Origin: Candidatus Nomurabacteria bacterium | GTDB taxonomy: Bacteria > Patescibacteriota > Patescibacteriia > Magasanikbacterales > UBA922 | Length of the DNA stretch: 64,000 nt | Direction: 5' to 3' | NCBI GenBank assembly: GCA_020632445.1 | Contig: JACKFN010000001.1 | Location: 75,975 to 139,974 of the forward strand | Shown here: positions 3,286 through 62,020 of the stretch, piece after piece | Position numbering within the stretch: position 1 is the first letter of the stretch | Layout: each line of letters starts with the position of its first letter | Made by a program: the position numbers and the translations under genes | The notes under the pieces: generated by a model | Database searches by the model: none | What the model was told of the DNA's origin: nothing | Seen by the model: the letters and a program-made list of their open reading frames with translations, nothing else

Positions 3286-4707
3286 TTAATAGTCCCTAAG
3301 CTTGTTAATCACATCAAATCCCTGAATCTTCTCAAGCGCCTTTGCCTCAATCTGGCGAATACGCTCACGTGTAACGTCAAATTCCTTTCCGACTTCTTCC
3401 AATGTGTGTGTCACACCGTCTGCGAGTCCAAAACGCATCTCAAGAATCTTTTGCTCTCGAGGAGAGAGTTGTGAAATAGCTTCATTGATATATTCCTTGA
3501 GCAGCTGTCTTCCTGCGACCTGTCTTGGTGATACGGTTTTGTTATCCTCAATAAAATCCGAAAGTGGAGAATCGTCGTCATCATCACCAATAGAGGTCTC
3601 AAGTGAAATGGTTTCCTGAGAAATCTTAATAATGTGGTTGATCTTATCAATAGGTTCACCCATTTCCGCAGCAAGCTCCTCAGGGGTCGGATTACGCCCA
3701 AGGTCTTGGAGTAGACGACGGGATATTTGCACGAAGCGATTGATCGTCTCTACCATATGTACCGGAATACGGATTGTACGAGACTGATCAGCCAATGCGC
3801 GCGTAATTGCCTGCCTGATCCACCAGGTAGCATAGGTAGAAAACTTATAGCCACGACGATAGTCAAACTTTTTTACGGCGCGAAACAAACCGACGTTTCC
3901 TTCTTGGATCAAATCAAGCAAGTGCAATTTCTTTCCTACAAATTTCTTGGCGATCGAAACCACCAAACGCAGATTTGCCTCAATCATTTGTTGTTCTGCT
4001 TCCCTATCCCCTCTTTCTTTGCGTTTGGCAAGAGAAACTTCTTCTTCTGCGGTCAAAAGTGGTATTCGGCCAATTTCACGCAAGTACATTTGAATAGAAT
4101 CCTGTGAAAGATTTTTGTAGTCAATACGTACCGCTGACTCAGAATTCTCACTACTGCTCGTGGTCCCAAGTAAGTCAGGGGTTTGCATTCTTGATCCACC
4201 CAAAAGCCCCTCTTTCATTTGCATGATAGAGATACTTGCCCTTGCCATCACATCCAAAAAAGCCTCAAACATCTCTACATAATGTTCGACATGCGGAAAA
4301 ACAGCAAGTACTTCTACTTCTGTCACAAATCCACGAGTGCGACCCTTTTCGATCAAGTGCCACGCTGCCTGTTCATCAGGAGACACCACATGCTCCTTTG
4401 TGGCTACTTTCTTGGGTTCGGTCTTTGATGAGCTCTTGCGAAGACTGGATGCCTTCTTGAGGGCAGCATTCACGCGTGAACGCCCTGTAGACGTCTTACG
4501 CTTCGCTGCTGAGGTGGCTTTTTTTGCTGTTGTTTTACGCACAGCACTGCGTTTCTTTGTTGCTGCCTTTGTTTTTATGGCTGTGACCTTTTTGGCACTT
4601 GCCCGCTTCTTGCTAGCAACTTTCTTTGCTGCGATTTTTCGCGCAGTTGGTTTTTTGACCGCACGCTTTGCGCTGGTCTTCTTGGTTGTCGACTTTTTCG
4701 TCGGCAT
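3286..4707 (-). CDS. rpoD: RNA polymerase primary sigma factor (sigma-70/RpoD) with a ~100-aa Lys/Ala-rich histone-H1-like N-terminal extension
   Basis: Region 2.4 [13 protein letters not shown] and region 4 HTH ([19 protein letters not shown]). Sits directly downstream of dnaG in the classic operon order. The N-terminal extension is made of AKK/KKA/TKK repeats. Confidence 0.9.
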
Positions 4708-4718
4708 GGTATGAATTA

Positions 4719-8233: not shown

Positions 8234-8236
8234 AGA

Positions 8237-20631: not shown

Positions 20632-21216
20632 ATGCAACAAAAAACACTTAACTCAAACTTGCCTCTTTTCCTTTTGGCTATTTCCTTAATTGCCTTGACC
20701 GTACTCTTTGCTGGCTGCACGAAAGCCAAAACTCAGGTTTCTGATACGACTGCTGGGGAGAATATGGAGGTAAACGAAGCTGATGATAGCATGATGAACG
20801 ACGACATGATGAACGACGACATGATGAACGACGACATGATGAACGACGACATGATGGACGACGACATGATGGACGACGACATGATGAACGACGACATGAT
20901 GAACGACGACATGATGGACGACCAAATGCAGACCATCTCGCTCTCAGGGAAAAATTTTGCATTCCTCATGAATGGAGAGGAAAACCCCACCCTTCGTGTC
21001 AAAAAAGGACAAAAAGTCAGCCTTGAATTTGTAAGTGACTCAGGATTTCACGATTTTGTAGTAGATGAGCTTGGTGTAGCGACTGACCGAGTACGTGACG
21101 GTGAAGGATCAACTACTGTTGAATTCACTCCAGAAAAAACAGGAACCTTTGAGTACTACTGTAGTGTGGGAGAGCACCGCGCAAATGGTATGAAGGGAAC
21201 CATCATTGTGGAATAA
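20632..21216 (+). CDS. Lipoprotein with (D-D-M-M-N/D)n Met/Asp-rich repeat region and C-terminal cupredoxin (type-1 copper) domain
   Basis: Lipobox LFAGCT. Nine tandem 15-bp repeats encode MMNDD/MMDDD. C-terminal YYCSVGEHRANGMKG fits the Cys-x-His-x-Met ligand spacing of plastocyanin/amicyanin-type copper sites. Confidence 0.65.
   Translation: MQQKTLNSNLPLFLLAISLIALTVLFAGCTKAKTQVSDTTAGENMEVNEADDSMMNDDMMNDDMMNDDMMNDDMMDDDMMDDDMMNDDMMNDDMMDDQMQTISLSGKNFAFLMNGEENPTLRVKKGQKVSLEFVSDSGFHDFVVDELGVATDRVRDGEGSTTVEFTPEKTGTFEYYCSVGEHRANGMKGTIIVE
20791..20925 (+). repeat. In-frame 15-bp tandem repeat (atgatgaacgacgac, ~9 copies, a/g variants)
   Basis: Directly visible perfect and near-perfect tandem units. 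Encodes the Met/Asp-rich tract of the cupredoxin lipoprotein. Confidence 0.95.
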
Positions 21217-35375: not shown

Positions 35376-35665
35376 AGTTCTCCTTGTACGTTAAAAAGTA
35401 CCCTACGGGGTATTTTTTTGTTCACGTCTTTTAGATACTCCACTTTCCACATCTTCAGTTTACATTTGCCTCTTCTTCTTTCGGTGATGCCGAACCTTTT
35501 TGAATTCTTTATAGTCTGCACTTACCTGCTTACTTCCAAAAAAATTTTTCATGGGCTTTCGTTTCAATTATTGTACGGAACTTGTGTATGCCGGTCCATC
35601 AATCATTGACAAGTCAGTTTTTTTATGCTTAGATGTAGCCTAGACACCCAGCGGAGGACTACGCC

Positions 35666-36022
35666 ATGTACCACATCGGTTACCAAGACCACCTCGAACT
35701 GTGGCACCTACTGTACTCGGGCTACTTGCTCTGGATCATAGGCCTGCAGTTTTTCTTTTTGTTGGCATCCAGTCCAGAACCGATGGATCTTCTCGGCCAG
35801 ATGAAGCAAAGTACTTTGGGTCGCATCCTCATGGTCTGGATTGGTCTTTCGCTCATTGGGGCGGGGTTGTACTGGTACATGTTGCCGGCAGTGCCCCTTC
35901 TAATCATTTCATTTGGTGCACCACTGGGCGCAGTGGTCATCGCAGTCATCTATACGATGTTTGTCTTCATCACAAGCGCCAAACTCCTCATGGAACGTTA
36001 CGCGCCACAATCAAGCCCCTAG
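35666..36022 (+). CDS. Small membrane protein (3 TM), GC-elevated (~52%) single-gene unit with its own TTGACA promoter and terminator
   Basis: Promoter-like TTGACAagtcagtttttttatgcTTAGAT and RBS GGAGG upstream. The 3' flank CCCACCAGCAAACTCCACAATTATTTTTA resembles the cargo 3' junctions of the 51.5-57.7 kb array. Terminator at 36096..36123. Confidence 0.5.
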   Translation: MYHIGYQDHLELWHLLYSGYLLWIIGLQFFFLLASSPEPMDLLGQMKQSTLGRILMVWIGLSLIGAGLYWYMLPAVPLLIISFGAPLGAVVIAVIYTMFVFITSAKLLMERYAPQSSP

Positions 36023-36095
36023 AAACCCACCACTCGTAGCTGTGCCCACCAGCAAACTCCACAATTATTTTTATCTGACAGAGATAATTGAGATC

Positions 36096-36123
36096 AAAAA
36101 AACACCTACTGCGGTGTTTTTTT
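36096..36123 (+). terminator. Rho-independent terminator
   Basis: AAAAAAACACCtactgcGGTGTTTTTTTG. Confidence 0.65.
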
Positions 36124-36236
36124 GTACTTGCTCCCCACAATTCCTCTTTTCGGAACTGTTTGGAGTTTATTTGGATGTCGTGGGAGTTGAGGGAAAATTA
36201 TTGAAGTTTGAGAAAGTGGCGCCACTGGCGTCCTAA

Positions 36237-36738: not shown

Positions 36739-37842
36739 TTACCACTGAGAACCTTTCTTCACCTTAAACTCGCCCTTTCCTTCAGAACGCCTCACCAGAT
36801 CCTCCATTCTAAACTGGCCCAAATATACTTCAACAGCCTCCATAGCCAACACCTGTACATCACCAAGCCCATTTTTTTCAAGCATAGCCTGCACGTCTTG
36901 CATGTGTTTTATTGGAACAATAATGGCTTTGATATCCTCAGGTTTCACAACATCCTCACCTCTAGCCTCATGCACGCCCAGAACCAGCATATCGCTATCT
37001 GCCGTCACATCTGTTTTATTGATGCATAATACCGCTCCCCAATTTCCTTCAATCTCTGACTTCATATCGAGCTGCGCATTAAATCCTTTCTGCTCACTTC
37101 CTTGCGCAGTAAATGATGTGAGCCATTTTTGAAAACGCTCACTCCTATCAAAACCTTCTGCATCACGCTTGCGCTTCATCTCCATCATTTGCTTCTTTTC
37201 TTTTTTTACTCGCCGAGCTGTGTCAAGTAAATTTCCAGCCTCACCAAACTCACGCTTGATAGAATCATACACAAAAAATGGAAAGTAATTGTTGGGATCA
37301 CCAAGTTGCCATTGTGGTTGATCACTCTCAGTCATGTATTTTGAAGCGTACCATTTAGAATAGAAGTAACTTTCAGTGAGTGATACAAAATCATCATCCC
37401 TTGTTGGGTGCCAAATATCTTTGTGAGGCTGCAAACCGTCATGTAGCACACTTTCAAGAATCTCCACGGGTTCATCTTGCTTATTCTCGTCAGGAATCTC
37501 TGTATCATCCTTTTTTTCGTACTTTTCTCCAGAATACTTCAGCCTCCCCGTACCATGAAAATAATAGTCATGCTTGAGCCCCTCCTCTGGAGTACCAAAA
37601 AAATCTACAAGCTTATCTCGCTGGAGCTCGAGCATTTTTTGAACCCCAGCTGAAGGGTAACCCTGCTCGCTCAAAAAACGGGCGACTTTTTGTTCAAGCC
37701 TGCCGGGTGTTCTCACTTCCCACATTCTGCGTTTAAATTTACGCATTTCTTCCTTGGGCGAAGGGTAGTGCCTTTCAATTTCGTCTATAGGTGGAATGGT
37801 TCTCCCCATTTCTAAAAAATTTCTCATATTTTGAAGTTTCAA
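36739..37842 (-). CDS. Hypothetical protein (367 aa), unknown function
   Basis: Intact ORF in tandem with the 36237..36725 ORF. No motif recognised. Confidence 0.45.
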   Translation of the reverse strand: MKLQNMRNFLEMGRTIPPIDEIERHYPSPKEEMRKFKRRMWEVRTPGRLEQKVARFLSEQGYPSAGVQKMLELQRDKLVDFFGTPEEGLKHDYYFHGTGRLKYSGEKYEKKDDTEIPDENKQDEPVEILESVLHDGLQPHKDIWHPTRDDDFVSLTESYFYSKWYASKYMTESDQPQWQLGDPNNYFPFFVYDSIKREFGEAGNLLDTARRVKKEKKQMMEMKRKRDAEGFDRSERFQKWLTSFTAQGSEQKGFNAQLDMKSEIEGNWGAVLCINKTDVTADSDMLVLGVHEARGEDVVKPEDIKAIIVPIKHMQDVQAMLEKNGLGDVQVLAMEAVEVYLGQFRMEDLVRRSEGKGEFKVKKGSQW

Positions 37843-37870
37843 TTATTATACCTAAATAGCTACTGAAATC

Positions 37871-37899
37871 AAAAAAACACCTTTCATGGTGTTTTTTTG
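37871..37899. terminator. Rho-independent terminator hairpin
   Basis: AAAAAAACACCtttcatGGTGTTTTTTTG. Confidence 0.6.
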
Positions 37900-38041
37900 T
37901 ACAATGCTCGGCGGGTGGGCGCTGCGCTATATGAACTCGGCACTTCGTGTCCTCTTGGGAAAACCTTCGGGTTTTCCCAACCTTTCCTCTAAATGTAAGG
38001 GGACCCCCCTTACCATCCCCCGTTCAAATCCCACCCTAATC

Positions 38042-51355: not shown

Positions 51356-51396
51356 TAGTATATCATATTGAGGTCAAAATCAAAGTATCTGTTATG

Positions 51397-51468
51397 ACCC
51401 TGTAGCTCAGCTGGTAGAGCAGCAGCCTTTTAAGCTGACGGTCCTGGGTTCGAGCCCCAGCGGGGTCA
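51397..51468 (+). tRNA. tRNA-Lys (anticodon UUU)
   Basis: GACCCTG-TA-GCTCAGCTGGTAGAGC-A-GCAGC-CTTTTAA-GCTGA-CGGTC-CTGGGTTCGAGCCCCAG-CGGGGTC-A. Confidence 0.85.
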
Positions 51469-51474
51469 CATAAT

Positions 51475-51505
51475 AAAAAACTCCTTATTTTAGAGGAGTT
51501 TTTTT
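51475..51505 (+). terminator. Rho-independent terminator just 3' of tRNA-Lys
   Basis: AAAAAACTCCTtattttaGAGGAGTTTTTTT. It resembles the terminator at the end of each repB copy. Confidence 0.7.
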
Positions 51506-51545
51506 GTAGTTGAGTGCGCCCGTTGTCCACTGTCTCGAACACTGC

Positions 51546-51613
51546 AACAAAAAAATACCGCTTTCACAGTATTCCTCTTTTTCCAACTACTTCTACGTTG
51601 TAAAAATGATTGG
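51546..51613. repeat. repA copy 1 (conserved cassette 3' module; contains the terminator for minus-strand cargo)
   Basis: caacaaaaaaataccgctttcacagtattcctctttttccaactacttctacgttgtaaaaatgattgg. Near-identical copies at 52785..52853 and 54961..55030. On the minus strand it reads CCAATCATTTTTAC...GGAATACTGtgaaagCAGTATTTTTTT, a hairpin followed by a T-tract. Confidence 0.85.
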
Positions 51614-51641
51614 AGTAGTTTGGTGGGGGTGGGTTGTTGGT

Positions 51642-51962
51642 TCAGCGCGGCTTGTACGTCTCCCAGTTCGAGGCGATGAAGCCACTGAGACCGTGACGGT
51701 CGTCGATTCGGCCGTGTACCGCGAAGCGGTCTGCATCACCTGCGACTACACCGCTCGTCCCTTCAGGGACTTCGCAGCCCTCGAAGCTCCATGACCTAGG
51801 ACGGTCAACAGCACGCGCGACCTGCAGGATGTTGACCCTCACGGCTCCACGGTTGGTGTAGATCGTTATGGTCTCTTCCGCACGCATGGAGCGGATTAGA
51901 GCGTCAATGCCGACAGATCCATCACCCTCAATCTCAGCAGTGATGCTTTCTCCCACGATCAT
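51642..51962 (-). CDS. Cargo ORF 1: small GC-rich (~58%) protein of unknown function
   Basis: Composition clearly departs from the flanks. Start placed at MIVGESIT; a GTG three codons downstream has a GGAG RBS and is also possible. The upstream part of the longer track ORF is encoded by the conserved repB leader and is shared with cargo 2 in another frame. Confidence 0.55.
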   Translation of the reverse strand: MIVGESITAEIEGDGSVGIDALIRSMRAEETITIYTNRGAVRVNILQVARAVDRPRSWSFEGCEVPEGTSGVVAGDADRFAVHGRIDDRHGLSGFIASNWETYKPR

Positions 51963-51984
51963 CTCCACGAGCCGTTTGCATCTT

Positions 51985-52220
51985 TGTGGGCTGCTGGCGA
52001 ATGCCTGCAAACCATCCCACGTAGAACGAAATAACATATCACAAAAAAGACCTTTTGTCAAGGCCTTCTTTCTACTATTTACCTAATTTTAAACAAAAAC
52101 AGCTCTATTTTCCTCAAATATCCCTCCCATTTCCACTATCCCCCGCTCCAATGTGTTCCAGCATAAAACCCACTGGCTCACATAATCAGAAAAACCTCTA
52201 AAATTAGAGGTTTTTTGTTC
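51985..52220. repeat. repB copy 1 (~235 bp module). Read on the minus strand: terminator, ~150-nt conserved segment, TTGACA/TATGTT promoter, 47-nt conserved leader
   Basis: ~90% identical to 53548..53786. A partial third copy lies at 57589..57668. The minus strand carries the promoter cTTGACAaaaggtcttttttgtgaTATGTTat and the leader ttcgttctacgtgggatggtttgcaggcattcgccagcagcccacaa. Confidence 0.85.
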
Positions 52221-52231
52221 CGCCGATTTTC

Positions 52232-52735
52232 TTAGAGCTGCACAATCAGCTTATTTATGAGTGGGGAAAAATGATCCTTATAACGATCTTGCAATTCATT
52301 CATTTTCCAATCACTGCCTGTTACAAAACCGCGGCACGTAGCTTCCCCACAACAACGCTCCCAACTTGAATGATATTCAGGATCTGCTTGAAATAATTCA
52401 TAATCTACGGTCAGTTCTTCTCCTACACTTACGGCCCTTTTAGCTACCAATGTATAGGCATCACCCATCCACAGATTTGAGTCACATGAATGATTTACAA
52501 AATACCCAGTGTCTTTTCCTCTTTCCTCTATACTATACAAATCACTATCCCACTGCATGACAAGCAAGCCCTTTTTCTGAAATTCAATAGCACCTTTCTT
52601 GTTAGTATAGTTTCCACCCCAAATAATTACCTTTTCTCCCTCTTTTATATCTTCATGGGCAAATATTCCCTTTCCAGCAATGCCACTATCAAAAACTTTA
52701 ACTTTTGGGTTTTTCCAGTCTTGTTTTTTATCCAT
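52232..52735 (-). CDS. SET-domain protein (putative protein-lysine methyltransferase)
   Basis: SET hallmark FVNHSCDSN (NHSCxPN), ELTVDY (ELxxDY), and post-SET-like Cys cluster CCGEATC. Host-like AT-rich composition. Confidence 0.75.
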   Translation of the reverse strand: MDKKQDWKNPKVKVFDSGIAGKGIFAHEDIKEGEKVIIWGGNYTNKKGAIEFQKKGLLVMQWDSDLYSIEERGKDTGYFVNHSCDSNLWMGDAYTLVAKRAVSVGEELTVDYELFQADPEYHSSWERCCGEATCRGFVTGSDWKMNELQDRYKDHFSPLINKLIVQL

Positions 52736-52784
52736 AATATAAACTGCAACACTCTTAGTTTACCTTAGATAGGCAAAATTTCAA

Positions 52785-52853
52785 GCACAAAAAAATACTG
52801 CTTTCACAGTATTTCTTTTTTTCCAACTATTTCTACGAAGGTAAAAATGATTG
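52785..52853. repeat. repA copy 2
   Basis: aaaaaaatactgctttcacagtatttctttttttccaactatttctacgaaggtaaaaatgattggg. Upstream extension agtttaccttagataggcaaaatttcaagcac is also shared with copy 3. Confidence 0.85.
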
Positions 52854-52925
52854 GGAATTCTTGGGCGCCTGTGGGTGGTCGGCGCCCGTTGGGGGTGTGG
52901 TGGGATGCGCAGCTTCAGCGCGAGG

Positions 52926-53519
52926 TCACTTGACGGTCGCGTGCGTCCGCCAGAACTCCACGCTGCGCGCGTAGGCGTCGCGGTCGAGGGGCTGGCCGCT
53001 GCCGCCCTCCTCGCGACCGAGCGCGTTGCGCATCATGGTGATGGGGGGCATGGGCGACTCGGCCGCCTGGAGCTCCGCGTTGACGCTCACGATGCCCCAG
53101 TTGGCGTCGGGCACGTCGGGCTCGCCCTCGGGGAACTTCTTGGCCTCCGCCTCCAGCGCCTCGCGCGTGTAGAGGACCAGGTCCAGGTGCGTGGCCCGCG
53201 GCGCCTCGACGCCCTCGAGCCAGCGGACCATCACGGGGAGCTCGCCCTCGCGGCGCGCGACGTAGTCGGTGCGCAGCGCGTGGCGGTTCTCGTCCGTGAT
53301 GGGCGCGATGCCCGCGAGGGTGTCCGACTCGTTCACCAGGAAGAGGTGCTTGCAGAACGGGGCGTACCCGTCGACCAGCTCCGCCCCCGCGGCGAGCGCC
53401 TCGTTGGCCAGCTCCACGAGCTGCTCGGGCGTCAAGCCCACGACTCGGGTGCCCGCGAACTCGGGATCGAAGTGGCGGCCCTGGGCGAATCGGGTGATGT
53501 CGATCTCTCGGCTGCTCAT
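52926..53519 (-). CDS. Cargo ORF 2: GC-rich (~68-70%) protein of unknown function (197 aa)
   Basis: Start MSSREIDITRF, preceded by GGAGAAG RBS, just downstream of the conserved repB promoter and leader. Codon usage and GC unlike the host genes. No motif recognised. Confidence 0.6.
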   Translation of the reverse strand: MSSREIDITRFAQGRHFDPEFAGTRVVGLTPEQLVELANEALAAGAELVDGYAPFCKHLFLVNESDTLAGIAPITDENRHALRTDYVARREGELPVMVRWLEGVEAPRATHLDLVLYTREALEAEAKKFPEGEPDVPDANWGIVSVNAELQAAESPMPPITMMRNALGREEGGSGQPLDRDAYARSVEFWRTHATVK

Positions 53520-53547
53520 CGGTTCTTCTCCGAATGAGGTGATGTCC

Positions 53548-53786
53548 TTGTGGGCCGCTGGCGAATGCCTGCAAACCATCCCACGTAGAACGAAGTAATA
53601 TAACACAAAAAAAGCCTCTTGTCAAGGCCTTCTTTCTACTATTTACCTAATTTTAAACAAAAAATGCCATGTTTTTCCTCAAATATCCCTCCCATATACA
53701 CTATCCCACGCTCCACAGTGTTCCAGCATAAACCCCATTGGCTCACATAGTCAGAAAAACCTCTAAATTTAGAGGTTTTTTGTTGT
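53548..53786. repeat. repB copy 2
   Basis: See repB copy 1. Minus-strand promoter cTTGACAagaggctttttttgtgtTATATTact. Confidence 0.85.
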
Positions 53787-53823
53787 TCTTTTTTTGTTAT
53801 TGGTACCTAAGCTGGAACACTTA

Positions 53824-54912
53824 CTACCTCTTATCCATTCTTGGAATTTCTCTTTCTTTCCTCATTTCCGAAAGCCTTTCACTTTCACGAAGTAACTCCC
53901 CTTTTGTTTCACCACGTAAGTTGGAATCTGCCAACATACGCATTTCATCTTTATCGCTGGAACGAGACAGCACGTAATTCGCCTTGATCATAATTTGCTG
54001 AAAGTCAGGCACACATCGCAGCCTTAACCACTCAGAGTTCGGTGGTTCTGTCATCTGATCGGCAAAGAAAACAATAGTATTGGGCGCATATTCTTGTATC
54101 CACTGCACCACCTTACTTTCTGAATTCAGCGGCTGCTCATGTGGTAAATCAAACAAAACTATGGCATCCACAATATCCGCTGCAGCCTTTAATTTGGCTT
54201 GTATAGAATCACTCATTTCAGAACAAACTCCAATAGGCAATATGTCTTTCTCCACGAGAGGATTAAATTCTACCTCCATTCCTTCAGTTTCCTCATAAAG
54301 CTTATCTTCTTCAACAGATATCTCACCTCTATACAATGTAGCAATTGGCTGTTCAGTTACACCATCCATTGCATCAACATCTGAAGCTGAAAACTTTCTT
54401 GTATGCACTGCTCGAAAAAGCTTTCCTGCAAAACAAACAGTTACTTCATTAATAGAAGGAATTTCGTTTCCTGACTGTGCTGCAACTTCAATAGCATCCA
54501 AAAGATTTCGTGGGCCATCTGATTCCTCTTCGACAGCTGGTATCATACTCCCTGTAAAGACTACAGGCCCTTTCAAACCTTGCAATTCATAACTCAATGC
54601 TCCCGCTGAAGGTCCCATGGTATCTGTACCAAAGACAACCACAATTCCGTCATAATTTTGCTGTTCCTTTGATATCCGATCACCCAAAAGTTGATAAAGC
54701 TCAATGTTTGCATCTGATGAATCAATAAACTTGTCGTTCAACTTAAACTCTGACCAATCTACCCGATATAGCAACTCTTCTAGACCTGGTATGTTCTGTT
54801 GTAGCATCTCCATGGATCCAGGCTTTAGACCACCCTTCAGATTCGTAGGCACCATACCAATGGTTCCACCTGTATATAGTACAAGAATCTTTCTTTCGCT
54901 TGCTTGTTTCAT
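53824..54912 (-). CDS. L-asparaginase family protein (type I / GatD-like) with basic C-terminal tail
   Basis: N-terminal ILVLYTGGTIGM motif, GIVVVFGTDTM second motif. 362 aa. Host-like composition. Confidence 0.75.
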   Translation of the reverse strand: MKQASERKILVLYTGGTIGMVPTNLKGGLKPGSMEMLQQNIPGLEELLYRVDWSEFKLNDKFIDSSDANIELYQLLGDRISKEQQNYDGIVVVFGTDTMGPSAGALSYELQGLKGPVVFTGSMIPAVEEESDGPRNLLDAIEVAAQSGNEIPSINEVTVCFAGKLFRAVHTRKFSASDVDAMDGVTEQPIATLYRGEISVEEDKLYEETEGMEVEFNPLVEKDILPIGVCSEMSDSIQAKLKAAADIVDAIVLFDLPHEQPLNSESKVVQWIQEYAPNTIVFFADQMTEPPNSEWLRLRCVPDFQQIMIKANYVLSRSSDKDEMRMLADSNLRGETKGELLRESERLSEMRKEREIPRMDKR

Positions 54913-54960
54913 AGTTTTTAGTCACTATATCCAGTTTACCCTACACAGCTAAAATATCAA

Positions 54961-55030
54961 GTGACAAAAAAATACTGCTTTCACAGTATTTCTTTTTTTC
55001 CAATTATTTCTACATTGTAAAAATGATTAG
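54961..55030. repeat. repA copy 3 (upstream extension from 54933)
   Basis: gtgacaaaaaaatactgctttcacagtatttctttttttccaattatttctacattgtaaaaatgattag. Confidence 0.85.
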
Positions 55031-55075
55031 GAACTTGTCGAGGCTGGGTGGATCAGCCCCTGACGTTGGTAGGTT

Positions 55076-55807
55076 TTAGGTGGGTGGGTTCAGCATGGCA
55101 AGGGCGTTCTTGGCGGCATCCTTGCGAGCTTCTTTTCTGGAGAGCCCAGTTCCGATGGCGTAGAAGGTGCTCCCAACGTAGACCGCTTCCGTATAGGTGC
55201 GCTCATGGTCAGGACCTTCTTCAGAAACAAGGCTGTAGGTAGGAGTTGGCTTCCCAAGCCCCTGAATTTGCTCCTGAAAGATACTCACGAAGTCAGTGTA
55301 ACTACGGTCGAAGATCCTCTGCAGGCGCGGAAGGATCATCTCAAGTACGAACGACTGGGCTGCCATCAGTCCACGATCCTGATAGATGGCACCAACCACT
55401 GCCTCAAGAACATCAGCGAACAACTTGGTCGTCCGCTCTAGATTTCGTACGTCCTTACGTTGCCCGCGAGACATTCGCACGTAGTTGATGATACCCAGCT
55501 CCACGGTCACCTCAGAGAGTGCCCTACCACACACAAGGCCCGAACGAAGCTTGGTAAGTTCACCCTCCGTCTTGTCACTATGGTTTCGAACGAGAAAATC
55601 CGTAACCACGAGCTCAATGACCGCGTCACCAAGAAATTCAAGAAGCTCGTAGTGTCCAAGCTCCCTTGCCGCCCTGTGCTCGTTGACGTAGGAGCGGTGA
55701 GTGAGCGCCTTCAGGAGAAGCTTCCTGTCGTGGAACTCGATGCCAAGGAGTTTACGAAGCTGCGAGAAGTAGTCTTCAGCTCGCATCTTCGTCCACCTCA
55801 TCATCAC
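55076..55807 (-). CDS. rnc: Ribonuclease III (in GC-elevated cargo block 3)
   Basis: RNase III signature HRSYVNEH...ELLEFLGDAV, catalytic DVLEAVVGAIY, C-terminal dsRBD (LSRKEARKDAAKNALAML). ~55-57% GC against a ~40% background. Confidence 0.8.
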   Translation of the reverse strand: MMMRWTKMRAEDYFSQLRKLLGIEFHDRKLLLKALTHRSYVNEHRAARELGHYELLEFLGDAVIELVVTDFLVRNHSDKTEGELTKLRSGLVCGRALSEVTVELGIINYVRMSRGQRKDVRNLERTTKLFADVLEAVVGAIYQDRGLMAAQSFVLEMILPRLQRIFDRSYTDFVSIFQEQIQGLGKPTPTYSLVSEEGPDHERTYTEAVYVGSTFYAIGTGLSRKEARKDAAKNALAMLNPPT

Positions 55808-57380
55808 TCAGATCGGGTCGATTGACCTGCTCCCATCGGACGTTGAGGTCGCACCGAATTTCGAAGAGGTCCTTCTTGAACTCTTCGTCCTCCCGAGCGA
55901 GCTCGAGAGCCTCGGACTTCGCACGCTTGAACCACGCCACGCTCCTACGGCACTCCCGCGCCAGGATCGGGTACTGGGGATCCCAATGACCACCAGTGTA
56001 GCCGAGGGACAACAGTACGTATGCAAGCATCGCTCTAGATACGACAGCTGAAACCCTGCGCCCCTCCATCTCGTTGGTACTGACTCCGTAGTAGAGACAG
56101 ACTTCTTCCATGATGAGGCGTGCTGACAGGGCCCTCCTGTGATCGATGGGCCTACGAGGCTTCTCGGGAAGCACCTGGACAGAAGATGCCCCCACCTTAC
56201 GCGGCTTGGCCTTCGGAGTCGGAACATCAGCGATGAACCCACCGATTTCCGCTTCGTCGTCCATGTCATCTGGCCCCTCTGTCTCTTCAGCGAACAGAGA
56301 TTCCAAAAGACCCGAGCTACGAAGCTTCTTAATGGCGGCAGCCTCACGTTGGCGAATTCTCTCACTTGTCACGCCGAAGGTGCTACCAATCTCCGTGAGG
56401 GTCCTTTGGCCCTTACCATCGAGGCCAAAACGCATCATGATAACTCGCCGTTCTACCTCAATGAGCCCCACCTCGTCGAATAGCTTCCTGATGGCTAAAC
56501 GCGCGAAGACACGATCCTCGAGACTGCTCTTGTCAACATCCCAAGGGGAACCAACTTGTGGCTGAAGACCACCTTCGCCTTCTGCGTCGAGTGACAGGGC
56601 ATCTTCGACACGGGGGCCATCCTCACCGCTTTTATCCCTACCGAACGCATTGTGGATCTCAAGAACTCGAGAACGCTGCCACCTAACTGCAGAGAGAACG
56701 TTTGCCAGCTCATTTCCCTTTGGATCCCAACCCAACATCACTGCCACCTCTTCGCCCGTAGGCCAGACACCGTGCTCCTTCCTGAATACACGTTGAGCGT
56801 TCACGAACTGAAAGAGGGAGGACCAGAGGTGAACGGGAACCCGAACGAGCCCAGAGTTGTAGACGGCACGAGTTACCTTCTGACGAATCCAGTGGTAGGC
56901 GTAGGTGCTGAACTGGTGCCCCTTGTCAGGATCGAACTTTCGAGCTGCAGTGAGCATCCCGATAGCTCCCTCTTGGGCGAAGTCTTCCAGGTCGTATGCA
57001 GGATCGAACTCAGGGTTCTCCACCAGATACCTGCACCTCCTGGTGACGAAACGCCACACGAGCCGCATATTCTCCTCAAAAACCCCCTCGAGGGCTTCGG
57101 CGTCACCACCGAGGTAATGCACCACATCGTTCGTGAGCCTGGTGCCTCCACTGATACCACCGCCACTATACCGCTTCTCTGGAATCGTATCACCCTTCAG
57201 AACGAGCCCGTACTCAGCGAGCTTCTTACGGACGAACCCCAGACGCCGCCTGGTGATTCCATTCCGCTTCGCACCGTCGAGAGTCTCGTTGGCCAGATCC
57301 CCCAGCGTGTGATACCCCATCTGCTTGAAGTCCTGGACCTGCTTCGGCCTGAACCCTGCGTCGGCAAGGCTCAGCTTCAT
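55776..57380 (-). CDS. Sigma-70-family-like multidomain DNA-binding protein (cargo block 3) with extra N- and C-terminal HTH-like domains
   Basis: Region 2-like STYAYHWIRQKVTRAVYNSGLVRVPVHLW. Region 4-like LTEIGSTFGVTSERIRQREAAAIKKLR. N-terminus resembles an RNAP alpha-CTD HhH (LADAGFRPKQVQDFKQMGYHTLGDL...GITRRRLGFVRKKLAEYGL). C-terminus resembles DnaA domain IV (EVCLYYGVSTNEMEGRRVSAVVSRAMLAYVLLSLGYTGG). Start chosen at MKLSLAD. The terminal-domain identities are weak. Confidence 0.55.
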   Translation of the reverse strand: MKLSLADAGFRPKQVQDFKQMGYHTLGDLANETLDGAKRNGITRRRLGFVRKKLAEYGLVLKGDTIPEKRYSGGGISGGTRLTNDVVHYLGGDAEALEGVFEENMRLVWRFVTRRCRYLVENPEFDPAYDLEDFAQEGAIGMLTAARKFDPDKGHQFSTYAYHWIRQKVTRAVYNSGLVRVPVHLWSSLFQFVNAQRVFRKEHGVWPTGEEVAVMLGWDPKGNELANVLSAVRWQRSRVLEIHNAFGRDKSGEDGPRVEDALSLDAEGEGGLQPQVGSPWDVDKSSLEDRVFARLAIRKLFDEVGLIEVERRVIMMRFGLDGKGQRTLTEIGSTFGVTSERIRQREAAAIKKLRSSGLLESLFAEETEGPDDMDDEAEIGGFIADVPTPKAKPRKVGASSVQVLPEKPRRPIDHRRALSARLIMEEVCLYYGVSTNEMEGRRVSAVVSRAMLAYVLLSLGYTGGHWDPQYPILARECRRSVAWFKRAKSEALELAREDEEFKKDLFEIRCDLNVRWEQVNRPDLSDDEVDEDAS

Positions 57381-57588
57381 CGCTGTTTGCTTATCTCGCA
57401 CTCTCTTGACCTTTCATCCTTAGTATCCACTGAGTTGAAGACAACGAAAAGTGCTACATTTCAAAGAACTCCACATTCATGAGTGGTAATTCACCATAGC
57501 TTAAAGTTATGAAAAAGTCAATATTTTTCTTCTAATCTAAGTGCAAAAAACGCTTAATTTACTGGTAACCACTACAAAATTACATAAT

Positions 57589-57668
57589 CCTTGCTCCAAA
57601 GTGTTCCAGCATAGACTCCACTGGCTCACAGTTTTAAAAACTCCCTATTTTAGAAACATTTTTTTCTT
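57589..57668. repeat. repB partial copy 3 (only the terminator and the first ~60 nt of the conserved segment)
   Basis: ccttgctccaaagtgttccagcatagactccactggctcacagttttaaaaactccctattttagaaacattttttt aligns to the right-hand end of repB copies 1 and 2. Confidence 0.7.
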
Positions 57669-57735
57669 AATTCTTGACTCACAATAATTATCACGTTACA
57701 TTTATATACAGCGTCAGAATATTTCACATTTTTAT

Positions 57736-58194
57736 ATGAATAAGGCTTCATGCCTGGTTTGCTCTCGTATAGAAAGCATTCATAGTAATAAAAATCCCTA
57801 TTACGTTACGGAGCTTCCATCAGGATATGTAGTACTTGGTGACCATCAGTTATTTAAGGGATATTCACTTTTGCTTCTGAAAAATCATGTCCAAGAGCTT
57901 CATGAACTCATTGACAACGACCGAAGACAGTTTCTCGAAGATATGAGCCTACTTGGAAAAGCAATCAATAATGCTTTTTCCCCCGAAAAAATAAACTACG
58001 AACTTCTAGGAAACTCAGCAAATCACTTACACTGGCATATTTTTCCAAGACATAAGAATGATCCTCGGCCACAAGGACCTGTTTGGGCAATAGACAAAGC
58101 GATAAGATATAGCGAAGAATATATTCCCAAGACAAAAACACTTCAAGATCTAAAAAATGCTCTTCTTTCTGAAATAAACAAGCTTAAAAGCTGA
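57736..58194 (+). CDS. HIT (histidine triad) family hydrolase
   Basis: Histidine triad HLHWHIFPR (HxHxHxx). ~150 aa. Confidence 0.8.
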   Translation: MNKASCLVCSRIESIHSNKNPYYVTELPSGYVVLGDHQLFKGYSLLLLKNHVQELHELIDNDRRQFLEDMSLLGKAINNAFSPEKINYELLGNSANHLHWHIFPRHKNDPRPQGPVWAIDKAIRYSEEYIPKTKTLQDLKNALLSEINKLKS

Positions 58195-60840: not shown

Positions 60841-60892
60841 AAAAAAACCCGTTTGAGCTTCCTTGCCGTGCAAAGAAACTCAAACGGGTTCC
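60841..60892 (-). terminator. Rho-independent terminator downstream of GC-rich island 4
   Basis: Minus strand: AACCCGTTTGAGtttctttgcacggcaaggaagCTCAAACGGGTTTTTTT. Confidence 0.65.
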
Positions 60893-61082
60893 GGAAGCGG
60901 TGAGGCTCCCGGCTTTGGTGGCGCACTCGGTCGCCCCCTCAGGTGGGTGTTGCTTGGACACGGAGTCCTGCATCACTCACAACCCTCCTCGACGCCGATC
61001 CTGGCTCACGGTGGCAGGTGAACCTACCGGTCCATGGATACCAGGATGGCGATCGAGGTTCGCGCCGACGAAGCGGACGCGA

Positions 61083-61487
61083 TCAGCGGGTCGCCGCGGT
61101 CGCCTCGATCAGGCACTGGGCCACGTAGGCCGCGTAGGTGCCGTTGTCGACGTGGTAGCCCGGCCCGGCGAACTTCGCCGTGATGGCGTTGGGGCCGGCC
61201 ATGGCCGCGTCCACCAACACCTTGTGGGCCCCGTTGATGGAACCGCCGGCGATCTTGCCGATGACCGAACCCTTGCTGAGGCCCGTCTGCCCCGCGATCA
61301 TGTTGGCGGTCTGGTCGAGCGTGACCGCGGCCGCCGTCGTCACCGCGGTGATCGCCGCCGCGTTGCGGTCGAAGTTCTCGTCGGGGACGTCGAGCGTGAT
61401 CACCACCTGGGTGGTGAACTTCACCCCCACGTTCGGGTTCTCGGTGGCCTGCTGCAGGTACTGCGTGAACTTGTCCATGGTCTTCAT
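61083..61487 (-). CDS. GC-rich (~62%) small protein of unknown function (island 4) with a long structured 5' leader
   Basis: Start MKTMDKFTQ, preceded by GGGGGA RBS. Ala/Thr/Gly-rich. Composition foreign to the flanking murG and membrane-protein genes. Confidence 0.55.
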   Translation of the reverse strand: MKTMDKFTQYLQQATENPNVGVKFTTQVVITLDVPDENFDRNAAAITAVTTAAAVTLDQTANMIAGQTGLSKGSVIGKIAGGSINGAHKVLVDAAMAGPNAITAKFAGPGYHVDNGTYAAYVAQCLIEATAATR

Positions 61488-61675
61488 GTGTCCCCCTCTG
61501 AGGGTGTTCCAGCCTCCGAAAGCCGGATTCGTAAGTTCCTCCCGACCAAGGAGGGTGCGCTGCTGCCCGAAGGCTGCATCGGAATACGCACTAAAGCTTT
61601 GTATCTGTCTACCCGTAGGCACACAGATACAAAGCTTCTCTAGGGTTGTGTGTAAATTGTAAAAAGCAATGCCAC

Positions 61676-61704
61676 AATTCTACTCAAAGATCCCAATTTT
61701 GTCA
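61676..61704 (-). promoter_or_regulatory. Sigma-70-type promoter for the island-4 gene
   Basis: Minus strand TTGACAaaattgggatctttgagTAGAAT, ~190 nt upstream of the start codon. Confidence 0.5.
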
Positions 61705-62020
61705 ACCTCTCTGTCCACACGGACTCAAAAAAATCGCTCCATTGCCATAACTTGACAAGCTCATCTTTTCATGTTACGGTAATTATAGAGAGTTAATTCT
61801 TAACAGACTCTATGACAGATCTGAAAACTCTTGCTTCTGGTTCATACGGCTACAGGCAGAGATAGGCAGCCAGATTGTTCCGGCACGCCTGTAGTCGGTG
61901 TTACTGGATTCACATTTCCTTTGTATTGACGTACAATAAAACCCTGACCAAACATCAGGGTTTTGTTTTTTTAATTTCCCTATACCACTTTCTTTTCACT
62001 CTTTTATTCTTCTCTTACTT

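What the first reader, a model, noticed from the sequence alone, without database searches (positions are those of the whole stretch)
51470..57700. Tandem cassette array next to tRNA-Lys: conserved terminator/promoter/leader modules flanking GC-rich foreign cargo genes
Directly downstream of tRNA-Lys, two non-coding repeat families alternate three times with genes (all on the minus strand). Modules:
- repA, ~70-100 bp (51546-51613, 52785-52853, 54961-55030).
- repB, ~235 bp (51985-52220, 53548-53786; truncated copy 57589-57668).

Order, read 3' to 5' relative to the genes: repA | cargo1 | repB | SET-domain gene | repA | cargo2 | repB | asparaginase | repA | RNase III + sigma-like | partial repB.

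Cargo and host genes:
- Cargo ORFs are compositionally foreign: cargo 2 ~68-70% GC, cargo 1 ~58%, block 3 ~56%, against ~40% for the genome.
- The genes between repB and the next repA are host-like.

Module anatomy on the minus strand:
- repB supplies a terminator (for the upstream gene), a near-consensus promoter (TTGACA-17-TATGTT/TATATT), and a 47-nt conserved leader ending ...GCCAGC(A/G)GCCCACAA.
- Past that point the sequence becomes cargo-specific and each cargo carries its own RBS.
- repA supplies CCAATCATTTTTAC...hairpin-T7 (a terminator) right after each cargo.

So every acquired gene sits in a pre-fabricated host expression module with a sharp recombination-like junction on both sides.

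What it is not: no integrase, attC-type site or transposase is present, so this is not a classical integron, IS element or prophage.

The GC values fit capture from high-GC donors (for example Actinobacteria). That would be striking if this organism is an episymbiont of such hosts.
Basis: partly seen in the sequence, partly recalled or inferred. Interest (0 to 1): 0.9.

Follow-up and report, generated by a model that had tools for sequence, protein, structure and literature searches.

The report
Foreign-gene expression cassettes beside tRNA-Lys
In this tiny-genome (CPR/Patescibacteria) bacterium, several GC-rich foreign genes each sit in the same ready-made AT-rich promoter/terminator casing; these casings with their cargo have been gained, lost and passed between species, mostly next to a tRNA-Lys gene, with no mobility enzyme found in the window.

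Summary
repA (3 copies) and repB (2 full, 1 diverged) alternate with GC-rich genes on the minus strand just downstream of tRNA-Lys.

Added here:
- The distal 54 nt of repB copies the terminator plus the last ~15 nt of tRNA-Lys, so it looks like an att site.
- A sibling species (Magasanikbacteria CG11) has asparaginase and SET adjacent, with no DUF3228 cassette. It carries other inserts instead, each flanked by 91-108-nt repeats of repA or distal repB.
- The repB-cargo1-repA block has dS 0.19 between the two species. Neighbouring host genes have dS of 1.4 or more, mostly saturated. The block is therefore shared horizontally.
- A fourth repA copy follows another GC-elevated ORF 15 kb away on the other strand.
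- About 49 ORFs were tested and none is an integrase or transposase. repA is not a canonical attC.
- Cargo1, the sigma-like protein and a fourth islet protein are orphans. The closest DUF3228 relatives are GC-rich islets in other CPR-like contigs, so no actinobacterial donor is shown.

Best reading: a small family of integrase-less, self-insulating expression cassettes. They accumulate by recombination at their own repeated ends, seeded at tRNA-Lys. The recombination mechanism is inferred, not shown. I rate this a new variant of tRNA-linked islands or moron-like cassettes, interest about 0.6.

The parts
51396..51469 (+). tRNA-Lys (UUU), anchor of the array
   Evidence: ARAGORN; Rfam tRNA 66.9 bits
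51455..51507 (.). T0: the last ~15 nt of tRNA-Lys plus its downstream bidirectional terminator hairpin. This is the prototype of the T segment repeated in repB.
   Evidence: blastn 88.7% over 53 nt, E 1.6e-11, against the sibling's repB. A 54-nt family with 3 copies at 85-91% in L001. The repB profile hits it at E 7e-5.
51546..51640 (-). repA1: C-rich tract (CCCACCCCCACCAAACTAC), hairpin 1 (CCAATCATTTTTAC/GTAGAAGTAGTTGG), and hairpin 2 + U7 (terminator)
51642..51962 (-). cargo1, a 106-aa orphan, 59% GC, GC3 0.64
   Evidence: Only itself and the sibling homologue in 5.8e9 proteins. No Pfam, PHROG or PADLOC hit. dN 0.08, dS 0.19 against the sibling.
51963..52239 (-). repB1. From the upstream gene's stop it contains: T1 (terminator + partial tRNA, about 52145-52220), a G-rich conserved spacer, promoter TTGACA-17-TATGTT (52061-52033), and a 47-nt leader ending GCCCACAA (about 52032-51985).
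52232..52735 (-). SET-domain gene, host-like composition
   Evidence: Pfam SET 5.9e-12. 63% aa identity and dS 1.84 against the sibling.
52740..52753 (-). Right copy of the 14-nt direct repeat AGTGTTGCAGTTTA flanking the DUF3228 cassette
   Evidence: Pattern search: 4 hits against 0.12 expected. Local shuffle test p about 0.04. Suggestive only.
52757..52880 (-). repA2 (C-rich hairpin, hairpin 1, terminator) plus the downstream promoter-like site P2, TTGAAA-16-TAAACT (52784-52757), facing SET
   Evidence: P2 is homologous to the one after repA3 (1 of 2000 shuffles).
52926..53519 (-). cargo2: DUF3228 protein, 72% GC, GC3 0.97
   Evidence: Pfam PF11539 2.7e-64. Homologues. AF2 pLDDT 93.8; the fold matches only apicomplexan hypothetical proteins 2pd0 and 4fbd.
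53520..53804 (-). repB2: T2 (about 53710-53786), G-rich spacer, promoter TTGACA-17-TATATT (53625-53597), leader
   Evidence: 89% identical to repB1 and 87% to the sibling's repB.
53808..53821 (-). Left copy of the 14-nt direct repeat (AGTGTTCCAGCTTA), directly after the asparaginase stop. It is an inverted copy of the motif inside T2 and T3.
   Evidence: (I2)
53824..54912 (-). Asparaginase-family gene, host-like composition
   Evidence: Pfam 3.7e-44. 83% aa identity to the sibling, where it lies 19 nt from the SET ATG.
54933..55053 (-). repA3 plus promoter-like P2, TTGATA-16-TAAACT (54960-54933), facing asparaginase
   Evidence: The Logan contig L035 breaks exactly at 54964.
55076..55789 (-). 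cargo3b: RNase III, 54% GC
   Evidence: Pfam Ribonucleas_3_3 3.9e-32 plus dsrm; phrog_28637
55776..57401 (-). cargo3a: sigma-70-family protein with extra N- and C-terminal regions, 57% GC. It is not the housekeeping sigma.
   Evidence: Pfam regions 2 and 4. Only itself in the database, next best 34-36%. 30% identical to the native RpoD at 3286-4707. Closest PDB sequences are SigA/RpoD.
57401..57679 (-). repB3: diverged full-length copy, with T3 (57593-57669) and promoter TTGACT-17-TATGGT (57521-57493)
   Evidence: D5; E 3e-53
35666..36022 (+). cargo5: 118-aa membrane-like ORF, GC3 0.66, outside the reported interval
36036..36130 (+). Fourth repA-family copy (C-rich CCCACCAGCAAACTCC, hairpin 1, terminator)
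   Evidence: Smith-Waterman against repA1, repA2 and repA3: 0 of 2000 shuffles reach the score. Motif searches.
37840..37902 (+). repA-like remnant with no cargo, a paralogous 'empty' arrangement
   Evidence: (D6, D7)
60846..61705 (-). Fourth GC-rich islet, with its own promoter (61705-61677), a structured 190-nt leader, an orphan ORF at 61083-61487 (GC3 0.98) and a terminator (60889-60847). It has no repA or repB.

Best explanation
The locus holds a small family of integrase-less, self-contained gene cassettes.

Anatomy. Each cassette has AT-rich ends typical of this bacterial group.
- The 5' end (repB) contains a terminator that stops read-through from the upstream gene, a copy of the tRNA-Lys 3' end, a conserved spacer, a near-consensus sigma-70 promoter and a short leader.
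- The 3' end (repA) contains a C-rich tract and two RNA hairpins, the second being an intrinsic terminator. In two copies repA continues into a further promoter-like site that could restart the downstream gene.
- Between the ends lies a compositionally foreign ORF with its own ribosome-binding site.

Because the unit terminates, drives and re-initiates transcription by itself, it can sit inside a dense operon without polar damage.

History. The cassettes are shared horizontally between related species. They accumulate beside tRNA-Lys because their T segment is homologous to the tRNA's 3' end and terminator.

How new units enter. I infer recombination at the repeated ends, which leaves the insert flanked by direct repeats of T, of repA or of a short microhomology. 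My lean is homology-driven recombination: Campbell-type single crossover of a circle, or double crossover in the conserved ends after DNA uptake. A trans-acting tyrosine integrase is the alternative.

Shown: the anatomy, the foreign composition, the presence/absence polymorphism, the flanking repeats, and the recent horizontal sharing.
Inferred: promoter and terminator activity, the non-polar design, and the recombination mechanism.
For: 1. Repeat families and their anatomy.
2. The T segment is homologous to the true tRNA-Lys flank. Evidence: 88.7% over 53 nt, E 1.6e-11; a 54-nt family at 85-91%; and the repB profile, built without the tRNA flanks, hits them at E 7e-5 and 4.5e-4.
3. Sibling genome L001. 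Asparaginase and SET are 19 nt apart with no DUF3228 unit. A paralogous GC-rich ORF (cargoX) is flanked by 91-nt repA repeats (92%). A PPDK-like gene is flanked by 108-nt distal-repB repeats (89%).
4. Horizontal sharing. cargo1 has dS 0.19, against 1.38 to saturated for five neighbouring host genes. Non-coding repB is 86% identical between the species, the 3'UTR plus repA 95%, and the spacer to the tRNA 89%. Two repA subtypes are shared across the two species (alignment).
5. repA follows a GC-elevated ORF in 4 of 4 intact copies in the window and 2 of 2 in the sibling, including a solitary copy 15 kb away on the other strand.
6. The T pattern occurs only twice in the sibling's 506-kb contig, both at this locus. 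No further repA or repB copies occur in the window. These are therefore not genome-wide dispersed repeats.
7. The flanking repeats have different sequences (T, repA, a 14-mer, possibly a 12-mer). No recombinase was found among about 49 ORFs tested. Both points favour homology-driven over single-site recombination.
8. Independent assemblies confirm the junctions.
Against: - Only two lineages carry the modules, so the comparison rests on one sibling. The polarity of each event (insertion or deletion) is inferred by parsimony.
- No circular or excised form and no donor carrying the same ends with other cargo was seen.
- The 14-nt repeat around the DUF3228 unit is only marginally significant locally (p about 0.04). 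No repeat was found around the sigma/RNase III unit.
- How a new foreign ORF first gets between the conserved leader and repA is unexplained.
- Only 64 kb of a 189-kb contig was visible, so an integrase may lie elsewhere in the genome.
- Promoter and terminator calls are consensus matches only.
- Island 4 and the sibling's other islets show that GC-rich genes also exist without these ends.
Confidence: 0.55

Rival explanations
1. Classical site-specific accretion. Each unit is the remnant of a small integrative element inserted by a tyrosine integrase into the 3' end of tRNA-Lys. New arrivals push older ones outward. T copies are attR scars, and the integrase genes have been lost or act in trans. 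This would be a CIME, satellite or tycheposon-like island.
For: - Partial-tRNA plus terminator repeats are in the same orientation as the tRNA.
- The same element sits at the same tRNA in two species whose host genes have dS of 1.4 or more, mostly saturated.
- The conserved about-110-nt spacer next to T, with repeated GGGATA motifs, could be an attP arm.
- The paradigm is documented for Prochlorococcus tRNA islands (bioRxiv 10.1101/2020.12.28.424599).
Against: - No integrase among about 49 ORFs tested in the 64-kb window.
- The DUF3228 unit lies between asparaginase and SET, which are adjacent in the sibling, so it did not enter at the tRNA.
- cargoX is flanked by repA, not by T.
- The solitary cassette at 36 kb has no T and no tRNA beside it.
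- T copies resemble each other more than they resemble the tRNA beyond the first ~15 nt.
Confidence: 0.25
2. Fixed host 'landing pads'. repA and repB are resident host regulatory modules duplicated locally, and foreign ORFs were captured into them one by one by illegitimate recombination. The modules themselves are not mobile.
For: - The modules have host-like AT-rich composition and host-type promoters.
- The junctions at GCCCACAA| and |CCAATCATTTTTAC are sharp.
Against: - The module-plus-cargo1 block is far less diverged between species than the host genes.
- The whole module set, not just the ORF, is absent between asparaginase and SET in the sibling.
- repA subtypes are shared across species.
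Confidence: 0.12
3. Integron-like array without a nearby integrase (CALIN). repA hairpin 1 acts as an attC-type folded recombination site at the 3' end of each cassette.
For: - repA is an imperfect palindrome placed directly 3' of every cargo, with a GTTGG/CCAAT core and one fixed mismatch.
- cargoX is bracketed by two repA copies, as a cassette would be.
Against: - The arms are only 14 nt, with no R/L box spacing or extrahelical bases.
- The wobble pairs indicate an RNA structure, not a DNA structure, on the sense strand.
- The cassettes carry their own promoters.
- No IntI was found.
- The sequence is strongly conserved, unlike attC sites.
Confidence: 0.05
4. Artefact: chimeric assembly or contaminant contigs joined at repeats.
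For: The genome is a MAG. The DUF3228 junctions are seen in one assembly only.
Against: - Independent Logan contigs are identical across the third cassette.
- cargo1 with both ends recurs in another species and in several samples.
- The repeat copies flanking DUF3228 are diverged (89%), not identical.
- DUF3228 is a similar GC-rich single-gene islet in five other contigs.
Confidence: 0.03

Closest known systems
tRNA-linked genomic islands built by successive integrations, including integrase-less remnants (Prochlorococcus tycheposon islands; cis-mobilizable elements (CIMEs) at tRNA-Lys in streptococci)
   Same: - Location directly 3' of a tRNA gene.
- Repeated partial-tRNA segments separating the units.
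- Foreign composition.
- Different unit content in related genomes.
- Units without their own integrase.
The tycheposon description was read. CIMEs are from my own knowledge.
   Different: - The units here are 0.7-2.8 kb with one or two genes.
- No integrase or replication module occurs anywhere in the window.
- The repeat extends past the tRNA into its terminator.
- Some units lie away from the tRNA or are bracketed by repA instead of the tRNA fragment.
- Conserved promoter and terminator ends are not a feature of those elements.
Phage 'morons' (autonomous promoter-ORF-terminator units of deviant GC inserted between phage genes; own knowledge)
   Same: A single ORF with its own promoter and terminator, base composition unlike its neighbours, inserted between two adjacent genes.
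   Different: - There is no prophage context.
- Morons do not share one conserved promoter/terminator casing.
- Morons are not associated with tRNA-derived repeats.
Integron gene cassettes and CALINs
   Same: An array of short units, each with a variable ORF followed by a conserved-position imperfect palindrome, all in one orientation.
   Different: - Each unit has its own promoter.
- The palindrome is too short for attC and is conserved in sequence.
- Its structure is RNA-type.
- No IntI or attI is present.
Minimal mobile elements of Neisseria (cassettes exchanged by transformation and homologous recombination in conserved flanks; own knowledge)
   Same: No mobility genes, variable content between constant flanks, and exchange between lineages.
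   Different: - The flanks here are short non-coding regulatory modules that travel with the cargo and are repeated within one genome.
- In Neisseria the flanks are conserved chromosomal genes.

Membership tests
tRNA-targeted integrative island / accretion | Lies immediately next to a tRNA gene | tested here: met
   tRNA-Lys at 51396-51469, with the first unit starting at 51470. The arrangement is the same in the sibling.
tRNA-targeted integrative island / accretion | Direct repeats of the tRNA 3' end bound the units | tested here: met
   A 54-nt repeat of terminator plus about 15 nt of the tRNA, 85-91% identical. Beyond about 15 nt the resemblance to the tRNA is weak.
tRNA-targeted integrative island / accretion | Integrase (tyrosine or serine recombinase) in or next to the island | tested here: not met
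   No recombinase or transposase domain in about 49 ORFs across the 64-kb window. The rest of the genome is not visible.
tRNA-targeted integrative island / accretion | Variable presence in related genomes and deviant composition | tested here: met
Integron / CALIN | IntI integrase with attI and a Pc promoter | tested here: not met
   No integrase found. Each unit has its own promoter.
Integron / CALIN | attC sites: 57-141 nt, R''-L''/L'-R' boxes with AAC/GTT cores, unpaired spacer, extrahelical bases, structure but not sequence conserved | tested here: inconclusive
   Hairpin 1 has 14-nt arms, a GTTGG core and one mismatch, but no spacer or extrahelical bases. It is more than 85% conserved in sequence, and its variable pairs are G-U. 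The IntegronFinder attC model could not be run.
Phage moron | Autonomous promoter-ORF-terminator unit with deviant GC | tested here: met
   (prediction only)
Phage moron | Embedded in a (pro)phage genome | tested here: not met
   Neighbours are asparaginase, SET, HIT and a P-type ATPase, with no phage structural genes. repA, repB and leader patterns are absent from IMG/VR.
Transposon / MITE / IS200-IS605-type element | Transposase, or terminal inverted repeats / subterminal hairpins with a constant target | tested here: not met
   No transposase and no terminal inverted repeats. The flanking direct repeats differ in length and sequence.
Known structured RNA families (riboswitch or leader in repB or repA) | Match to an Rfam covariance model | tested here: not met
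   Only tRNA-Lys passes. All other hits are far below the gathering score.

The most novel reading that the evidence does not exclude
CPR/Patescibacteria may carry a previously undescribed class of non-autonomous gene cassette. It would be an AT-rich, self-insulating 'expression casing' (terminator, promoter, leader, cargo, double hairpin terminator, restart promoter) whose conserved ends double as portable recombination sites. It would shuttle unameliorated high-GC genes between cells and install them without polar effects in streamlined genomes. The recurrent GC3 0.75-0.98 single-gene islets seen in other CPR-like contigs would be the wider footprint of the same traffic.
Probability: 0.25. 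Interest if true: 0.8.

Novelty: new variant of a known kind. Interest (0 to 1): 0.6.

Why it matters
CPR bacteria have tiny, densely packed genomes and few recognised mobile elements, yet they clearly take up foreign genes. This locus shows one concrete way such genes may be installed and expressed: a reusable casing supplies termination, a strong promoter and a restart promoter. It also shows that casing and cargo move between species.

If general, this would explain how unameliorated GC-rich genes are made functional in AT-rich streamlined genomes. It would also give a sequence signature (T, repA) for tracking gene flow in uncultivated lineages. The promoter-leader and terminator modules are candidate parts for the genetic tools now being developed for Patescibacteria.

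Tried and rejected
- Exact-protein look-ups of SET and DUF3228 found nothing. This NCBI MAG is not in the gene-position index.
- The genome-contig scan with asparaginase returned a single sibling. The one metagenome scan with the T pattern returned the same sibling contig plus one unrelated marine hit with no similarity to the window or sibling. No third lineage was available.
- IMG/VR scans were unproductive. The T pattern gave three chance hits inside one phage gene. The hairpin-1 pattern gave 28 hits, which I judged by my own estimate to be in the range expected by chance and did not inspect. The repA terminator and the leader gave none. A phage vehicle is therefore not supported.
- Rfam found nothing in the leaders or repeats.
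- The leader fold is no more stable than shuffles (z -0.5 to -0.7), so I do not propose a riboswitch.
- I considered that the P2 segment upstream of SET is a duplicated asparaginase 3' end. The alignment is not significant, so I rejected it.
- I looked for flanking repeats around island 4, the sibling's 8-kb islets, the Uhrbacteria DUF3228 islet and the sigma/RNase III unit. None was convincing.
- PADLOC gave only a generic sigma-domain match to MzaA, so I make no defence-system claim.
- DUF3228 is absent from plasmids and nearly absent from phage records. Its predicted structure gave no function.
- I considered that the GC-rich sigma is the housekeeping rpoD. This is rejected because the native dnaG-rpoD pair is at 3286-6494.

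Full report
WHAT THE WINDOW IS

The window is about 42% GC. It carries dcw genes (murG, ftsW), dnaG-rpoD, a P-type ATPase and three tRNAs. Exact protein matches place it in an NCBI MAG labelled 'Candidatus Nomurabacteria bacterium' (locus tags H6758_*, contig 189,074 nt). The only close relative found is a Crystal Geyser 'Candidatus Magasanikbacteria' MAG, PCWN01000007.1 (locus L001). Its asparaginase is 83% identical to the window's. The JGI contig L033 and several short contigs (L042-L048) are the same organism as L001.

The repeat finder recovers repA three times and repB twice in full, plus a shared 38-nt core in a third place. Alignments and an nhmmer profile show that the third repB is a full-length but diverged copy at 57401-57679.

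The composition steps are sharp:

| Gene(s) | GC | GC3 |
|---|---|---|
| cargo1 | 59% | 0.64 |
| DUF3228 | 72% | 0.97 |
| RNase III + sigma-like | 54-57% | 0.61-0.64 |
| Neighbouring host genes | 37-45% | 0.29-0.41 |

At least three compositional classes are present, which implies several sources.

Independent Logan assemblies from SRR12358675/6 are 100% identical to window 54964-58168 and 55211-57651. One of them stops exactly at repA3, as an assembler does at a repeat. The cargo1 unit with both ends recurs in the sibling species in several samples. The repeat copies around DUF3228 are 89% rather than 100% identical to the others. A chimeric assembly is therefore very unlikely.

ANATOMY

repB, read in the sense of the genes, begins at the stop codon of the upstream gene. 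It contains, in order:
- a bidirectional hairpin terminator;
- a segment GTGAGCCAGTGGGGTTTATGCTGGAACAC;
- a G-rich conserved spacer with two GGGATA motifs;
- an A/T-rich stretch;
- a near-consensus promoter with an upstream TG (TTGACA-17-TATGTT or TATATT);
- a 47-nt leader ending GCCCACAA.

After the leader the sequence becomes cargo-specific, and each cargo has its own GGAG. The leader does not fold better than shuffled sequence, and Rfam finds nothing.

repA begins within a few bases of the cargo stop. It contains a C-rich tract holding CCACCC, which in two copies sits in the loop of a GC hairpin. Next comes hairpin 1 (CCAATCATTTTTAC / GTAGAAATAGTTGG), then hairpin 2 followed by U7. Across five copies all 26 base pairs are kept. 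All eight one-sided changes are G-U/A-U or G-U/G-C switches, and three pairs are invariant G-U. The structure is therefore read on the cargo-sense RNA, as expected of a 3' end/terminator module rather than a folded-DNA recombination site.

After repA2 and repA3 the similarity continues into a promoter-like site (TTGAAA or TTGATA, 16 nt, TAAACT) facing SET and asparaginase. A complete unit thus terminates the upstream gene, drives its cargo, terminates again and could restart the downstream gene.

A LINK TO THE tRNA

The first 54 nt of repB are homologous to the true 3' flank of tRNA-Lys, that is, its terminator hairpin plus the last ~15 nt of the tRNA.
- In the sibling the three copies are 85-91% identical.
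- blastn gives 88.7% over 53 nt, E 1.6e-11.
- A repB profile built without the tRNA flanks hits them at E 7e-5 and 4.5e-4.

I call this segment T. Beyond ~15 nt the T copies resemble each other, not the tRNA.

Partial-tRNA repeats between units are the hallmark of islands built by successive integration at a tRNA. This is described for Prochlorococcus tycheposon islands (bioRxiv 10.1101/2020.12.28.424599).

COMPARISON WITH THE SIBLING

In L001 the order is: asparaginase, SET, T (108 nt of distal repB), a PPDK-like gene, full repB, the cargo1 homologue, repA, a different GC-rich ORF (cargoX), repA, spacer, T0/tRNA-Lys. Three differences are informative.

1. Asparaginase and SET are only 19 nt apart (stop to ATG) in L001. 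The whole repB2-DUF3228-repA2-P2 unit (about 1.05 kb) is therefore an insertion into that pair in the window's lineage, or a clean loss in the other. In the window the unit is bracketed by a 14-nt direct repeat, AGTGTT(C/G)CAG(C/T)TTA (53808-53821 and 52740-52753). The same motif occurs inverted inside T2 and T3. The pattern has 4 hits against 0.12 expected in the window, but a local shuffle test gives only p about 0.04. I treat it as suggestive.
2. cargoX is flanked by two repA copies (91 nt, 92%).
3. The PPDK-like gene is flanked by two distal-repB copies (108 nt, 89%).

Every insert for which an 'empty' state can be inferred is thus flanked by direct repeats. However, the repeats differ (T, repA, a 14-mer).

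THE UNITS ARE HORIZONTALLY SHARED

Divergence between the two species:

| Gene or segment | dS | aa identity |
|---|---|---|
| Asparaginase | 1.38 | 83% |
| SET | 1.84 | 63% |
| P-type ATPase | 3.4 | 65% |
| Translin-like | saturated | 63% |
| Mur ligase | saturated | 63% |
| cargo1 | 0.19 (dN 0.08) | 87% |

The non-coding parts of the cargo1 unit are also close between the species: repB 86%, the cargo1 3'UTR plus repA 95%, and the spacer down to the tRNA 89%.

Within the window repB1 and repB2 are 89% alike, and repB2 is 87% like the sibling's repB. The modules are therefore about equally distant within and between genomes. Two repA subtypes (GAGGAAT and AAGAAAT before hairpin 2) each occur in both species (alignment).

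The block from T1 to the tRNA, ends and cargo together, was therefore shared long after the species separated. This is the main reason I do not regard the modules as fixed host landing pads.

THE FAMILY EXTENDS BEYOND THE REPORTED INTERVAL

A fourth repA copy lies at 36036-36130 on the plus strand. It has the same C-rich tract (CCCACCAGCAAACTCC), hairpin 1 and terminator, and it is significant against each of repA1-3 (0 of 2000 shuffles). It follows a 118-aa membrane-like ORF with GC3 0.66. The promoter region there resembles that of repB2 (7 of 2000 shuffles), but there is no T.

A paralogous locus at 37809-37902 has the same left flank and a repA-like remnant with nothing between them. The motif CAATTATTnTAC is present once there and on both sides of the 485-nt insert at 35.6 kb. 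This is again suggestive of a repeat-flanked insertion.

In all, repA follows a GC-elevated ORF in 4 of 4 intact copies in the window and 2 of 2 in the sibling. Conversely, the T pattern occurs only twice in the sibling's 506-kb contig, both times here. nhmmer finds no further repA or repB in the window. These are not ordinary dispersed intergenic repeats.

NOT ALL GC-RICH GENES USE THESE ENDS

Island 4 (60846-61705) has its own promoter TTGACA-17-TAGAAT, a strongly structured leader (z -5.8), an ORF with GC3 0.98 and a 20-bp terminator, all unrelated to repA and repB. The sibling has two further GC-rich ORFs at 8070-8803. One is a 34%-identical paralogue of cargoX.

THE CARGO

- cargo1 has no relative except its sibling copy in 5.8 billion proteins.
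- The island-4 protein has none in 1.8 billion representatives.
- The sigma-like protein has only itself, then 34-36% matches to primary sigma factors.
  - It is 30% identical to the genome's own RpoD, which sits in a normal dnaG-rpoD pair at 3286-6494.
  - Its closest solved relatives are SigA/RpoD.
- RNase III and the sigma match phage protein families, but only generically.
- DUF3228 has many relatives.
  - The closest (62-75%) lie in contigs labelled Parcubacteria or Uhrbacteria, or of similar mosaic make-up.
  - In all five contigs read, the gene is again a GC-rich islet (GC3 0.75-0.98) next to AT-rich DNA.
  - More distant relatives (43-50%) occur in large IMG/VR contigs. There are none on plasmids.
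  - Its confidently predicted fold (pLDDT 93.8) matches only uncharacterised apicomplexan proteins.

No donor can be named, and nothing points to Actinobacteria. Why the family keeps GC3 above 0.9 in several AT-rich lineages is unexplained.

MOBILITY GENES

None of about 49 ORFs tested across the window has an integrase, recombinase or transposase domain. Two VirD4/TraG-like ATPases lie 40-50 kb away. Only a third of the contig is visible.

HOW IT MOST LIKELY WORKS

Shown:
- a family of units with conserved AT-rich ends and unrelated, compositionally foreign cargo;
- their gain and loss between two species;
- flanking direct repeats at each inferred insertion;
- recent horizontal sharing of ends plus cargo;
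- a tRNA-derived segment in the 5' end;
- clustering beside that tRNA.

Inferred:
- the ends act as terminator, promoter and restart promoter, so the unit is transcriptionally insulated and non-polar;
- units enter by recombination at their repeated ends.

The flanking repeats are of several kinds and lengths (12-14 nt, 54-108 nt), and no recombinase is in sight. I therefore lean to homology-driven recombination. This could be a Campbell-type crossover of a circular copy with a resident T, repA or microhomology, or replacement by double crossover in the two conserved ends after DNA uptake. T gives the first foothold at the tRNA-Lys flank. A trans-acting tyrosine integrase using T as its att site is the main rival and would explain the tRNA association more directly. 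Neither model explains how a new ORF first comes to lie between the leader and repA.

COMPARISON WITH KNOWN SYSTEMS

The locus works like a tRNA-linked island built by accretion of integrase-less units. Each unit looks like a phage moron, and the array superficially resembles an integron. It fails a defining test of each:
- no integrase;
- no prophage;
- no attC or IntI, and each unit has its own promoter.

The conserved, travelling promoter/terminator casing around variable foreign cargo is the feature I could not find described. I rate it a new variant of a known kind. The finding is real and of moderate to good interest, but it rests on two lineages and has an unresolved mechanism.

Noticed in passing
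window 35566-36130 (+) and 37809-37902: A solitary cassette lies outside the reported interval. It has a promoter-like site, a 118-aa membrane-like ORF (GC3 0.66) and a diverged repA copy. A paralogous locus 2.2 kb away has the same left flank and a repA-like remnant but no cargo. The motif CAATTATTnTAC occurs on both sides of the 485-nt insert and only once at the empty locus.
   Followed up: partly
window 60846-61705 (-): A fourth GC-rich islet (67% GC, GC3 0.98). It has its own 11/12 consensus promoter, a 190-nt highly structured leader (z -5.8), an orphan 134-aa ORF and a 20-bp-stem terminator, all unrelated to repA and repB. The 10-mer GTGTTCCAGC of the T segment also occurs in its leader (61504-61513).
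   Followed up: partly
loci L037, L038, L041, L049, L051 (DUF3228 relatives in other CPR-like contigs): In all five contigs the DUF3228 gene has GC3 0.75-0.98 and lies in or beside AT-rich DNA. It is often next to other GC-rich ORFs without Pfam domains. GC-rich single-gene or mosaic islets therefore seem recurrent in CPR genomes. Why GC3 is not ameliorated is unexplained.
   Followed up: partly
L001 8070-8803: The sibling genome has two further convergent GC-rich small ORFs away from the tRNA. One is a 34%-identical paralogue of cargoX, with its own promoter and terminator and a CCCACC motif in the 3' UTR.
   Followed up: partly
window 51615-51633, 52858-52905, 55035-55060, 36028-36060, 60940-60960: A C-rich CCACCC/CCCACC motif lies in the 3' UTR of every GC-rich cargo. 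In two cases it is in the loop of a GC hairpin, and it also occurs where the terminator is unrelated. Its function is unknown, and the motif was chosen post hoc.
   Followed up: no
window 139-1881 and 8237-9616 (-): Two VirD4/TraG-like coupling-protein ATPases (TrwB_AAD_bind) flank the native dnaG-rpoD pair.
   Followed up: no
window 55776-57401 (-): The GC-rich sigma-70-family protein has about 90 extra N-terminal residues and about 170 extra C-terminal residues beyond regions 2-4. By eye these resemble an alpha-CTD-like helix-hairpin-helix and a DnaA-C-like helix-turn-helix. Its gene overlaps the RNase III gene by 14 nt.
   Followed up: no
window 20760-20958: Ten tandem copies of a 15-nt unit (ATGATGAACGACGAC, coding MMNDD repeats) lie inside a cupredoxin-like ORF (20632-21216).
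   Followed up: no
window 42436-44802 vs L001 11802-14141: Both genomes have a PPDK-like gene, but at different places: next to tRNA-Thr in the window, and inside the tRNA-Lys array between two T copies in the sibling. The two are only 39% identical, so they are paralogues or independent acquisitions.
   Followed up: partly
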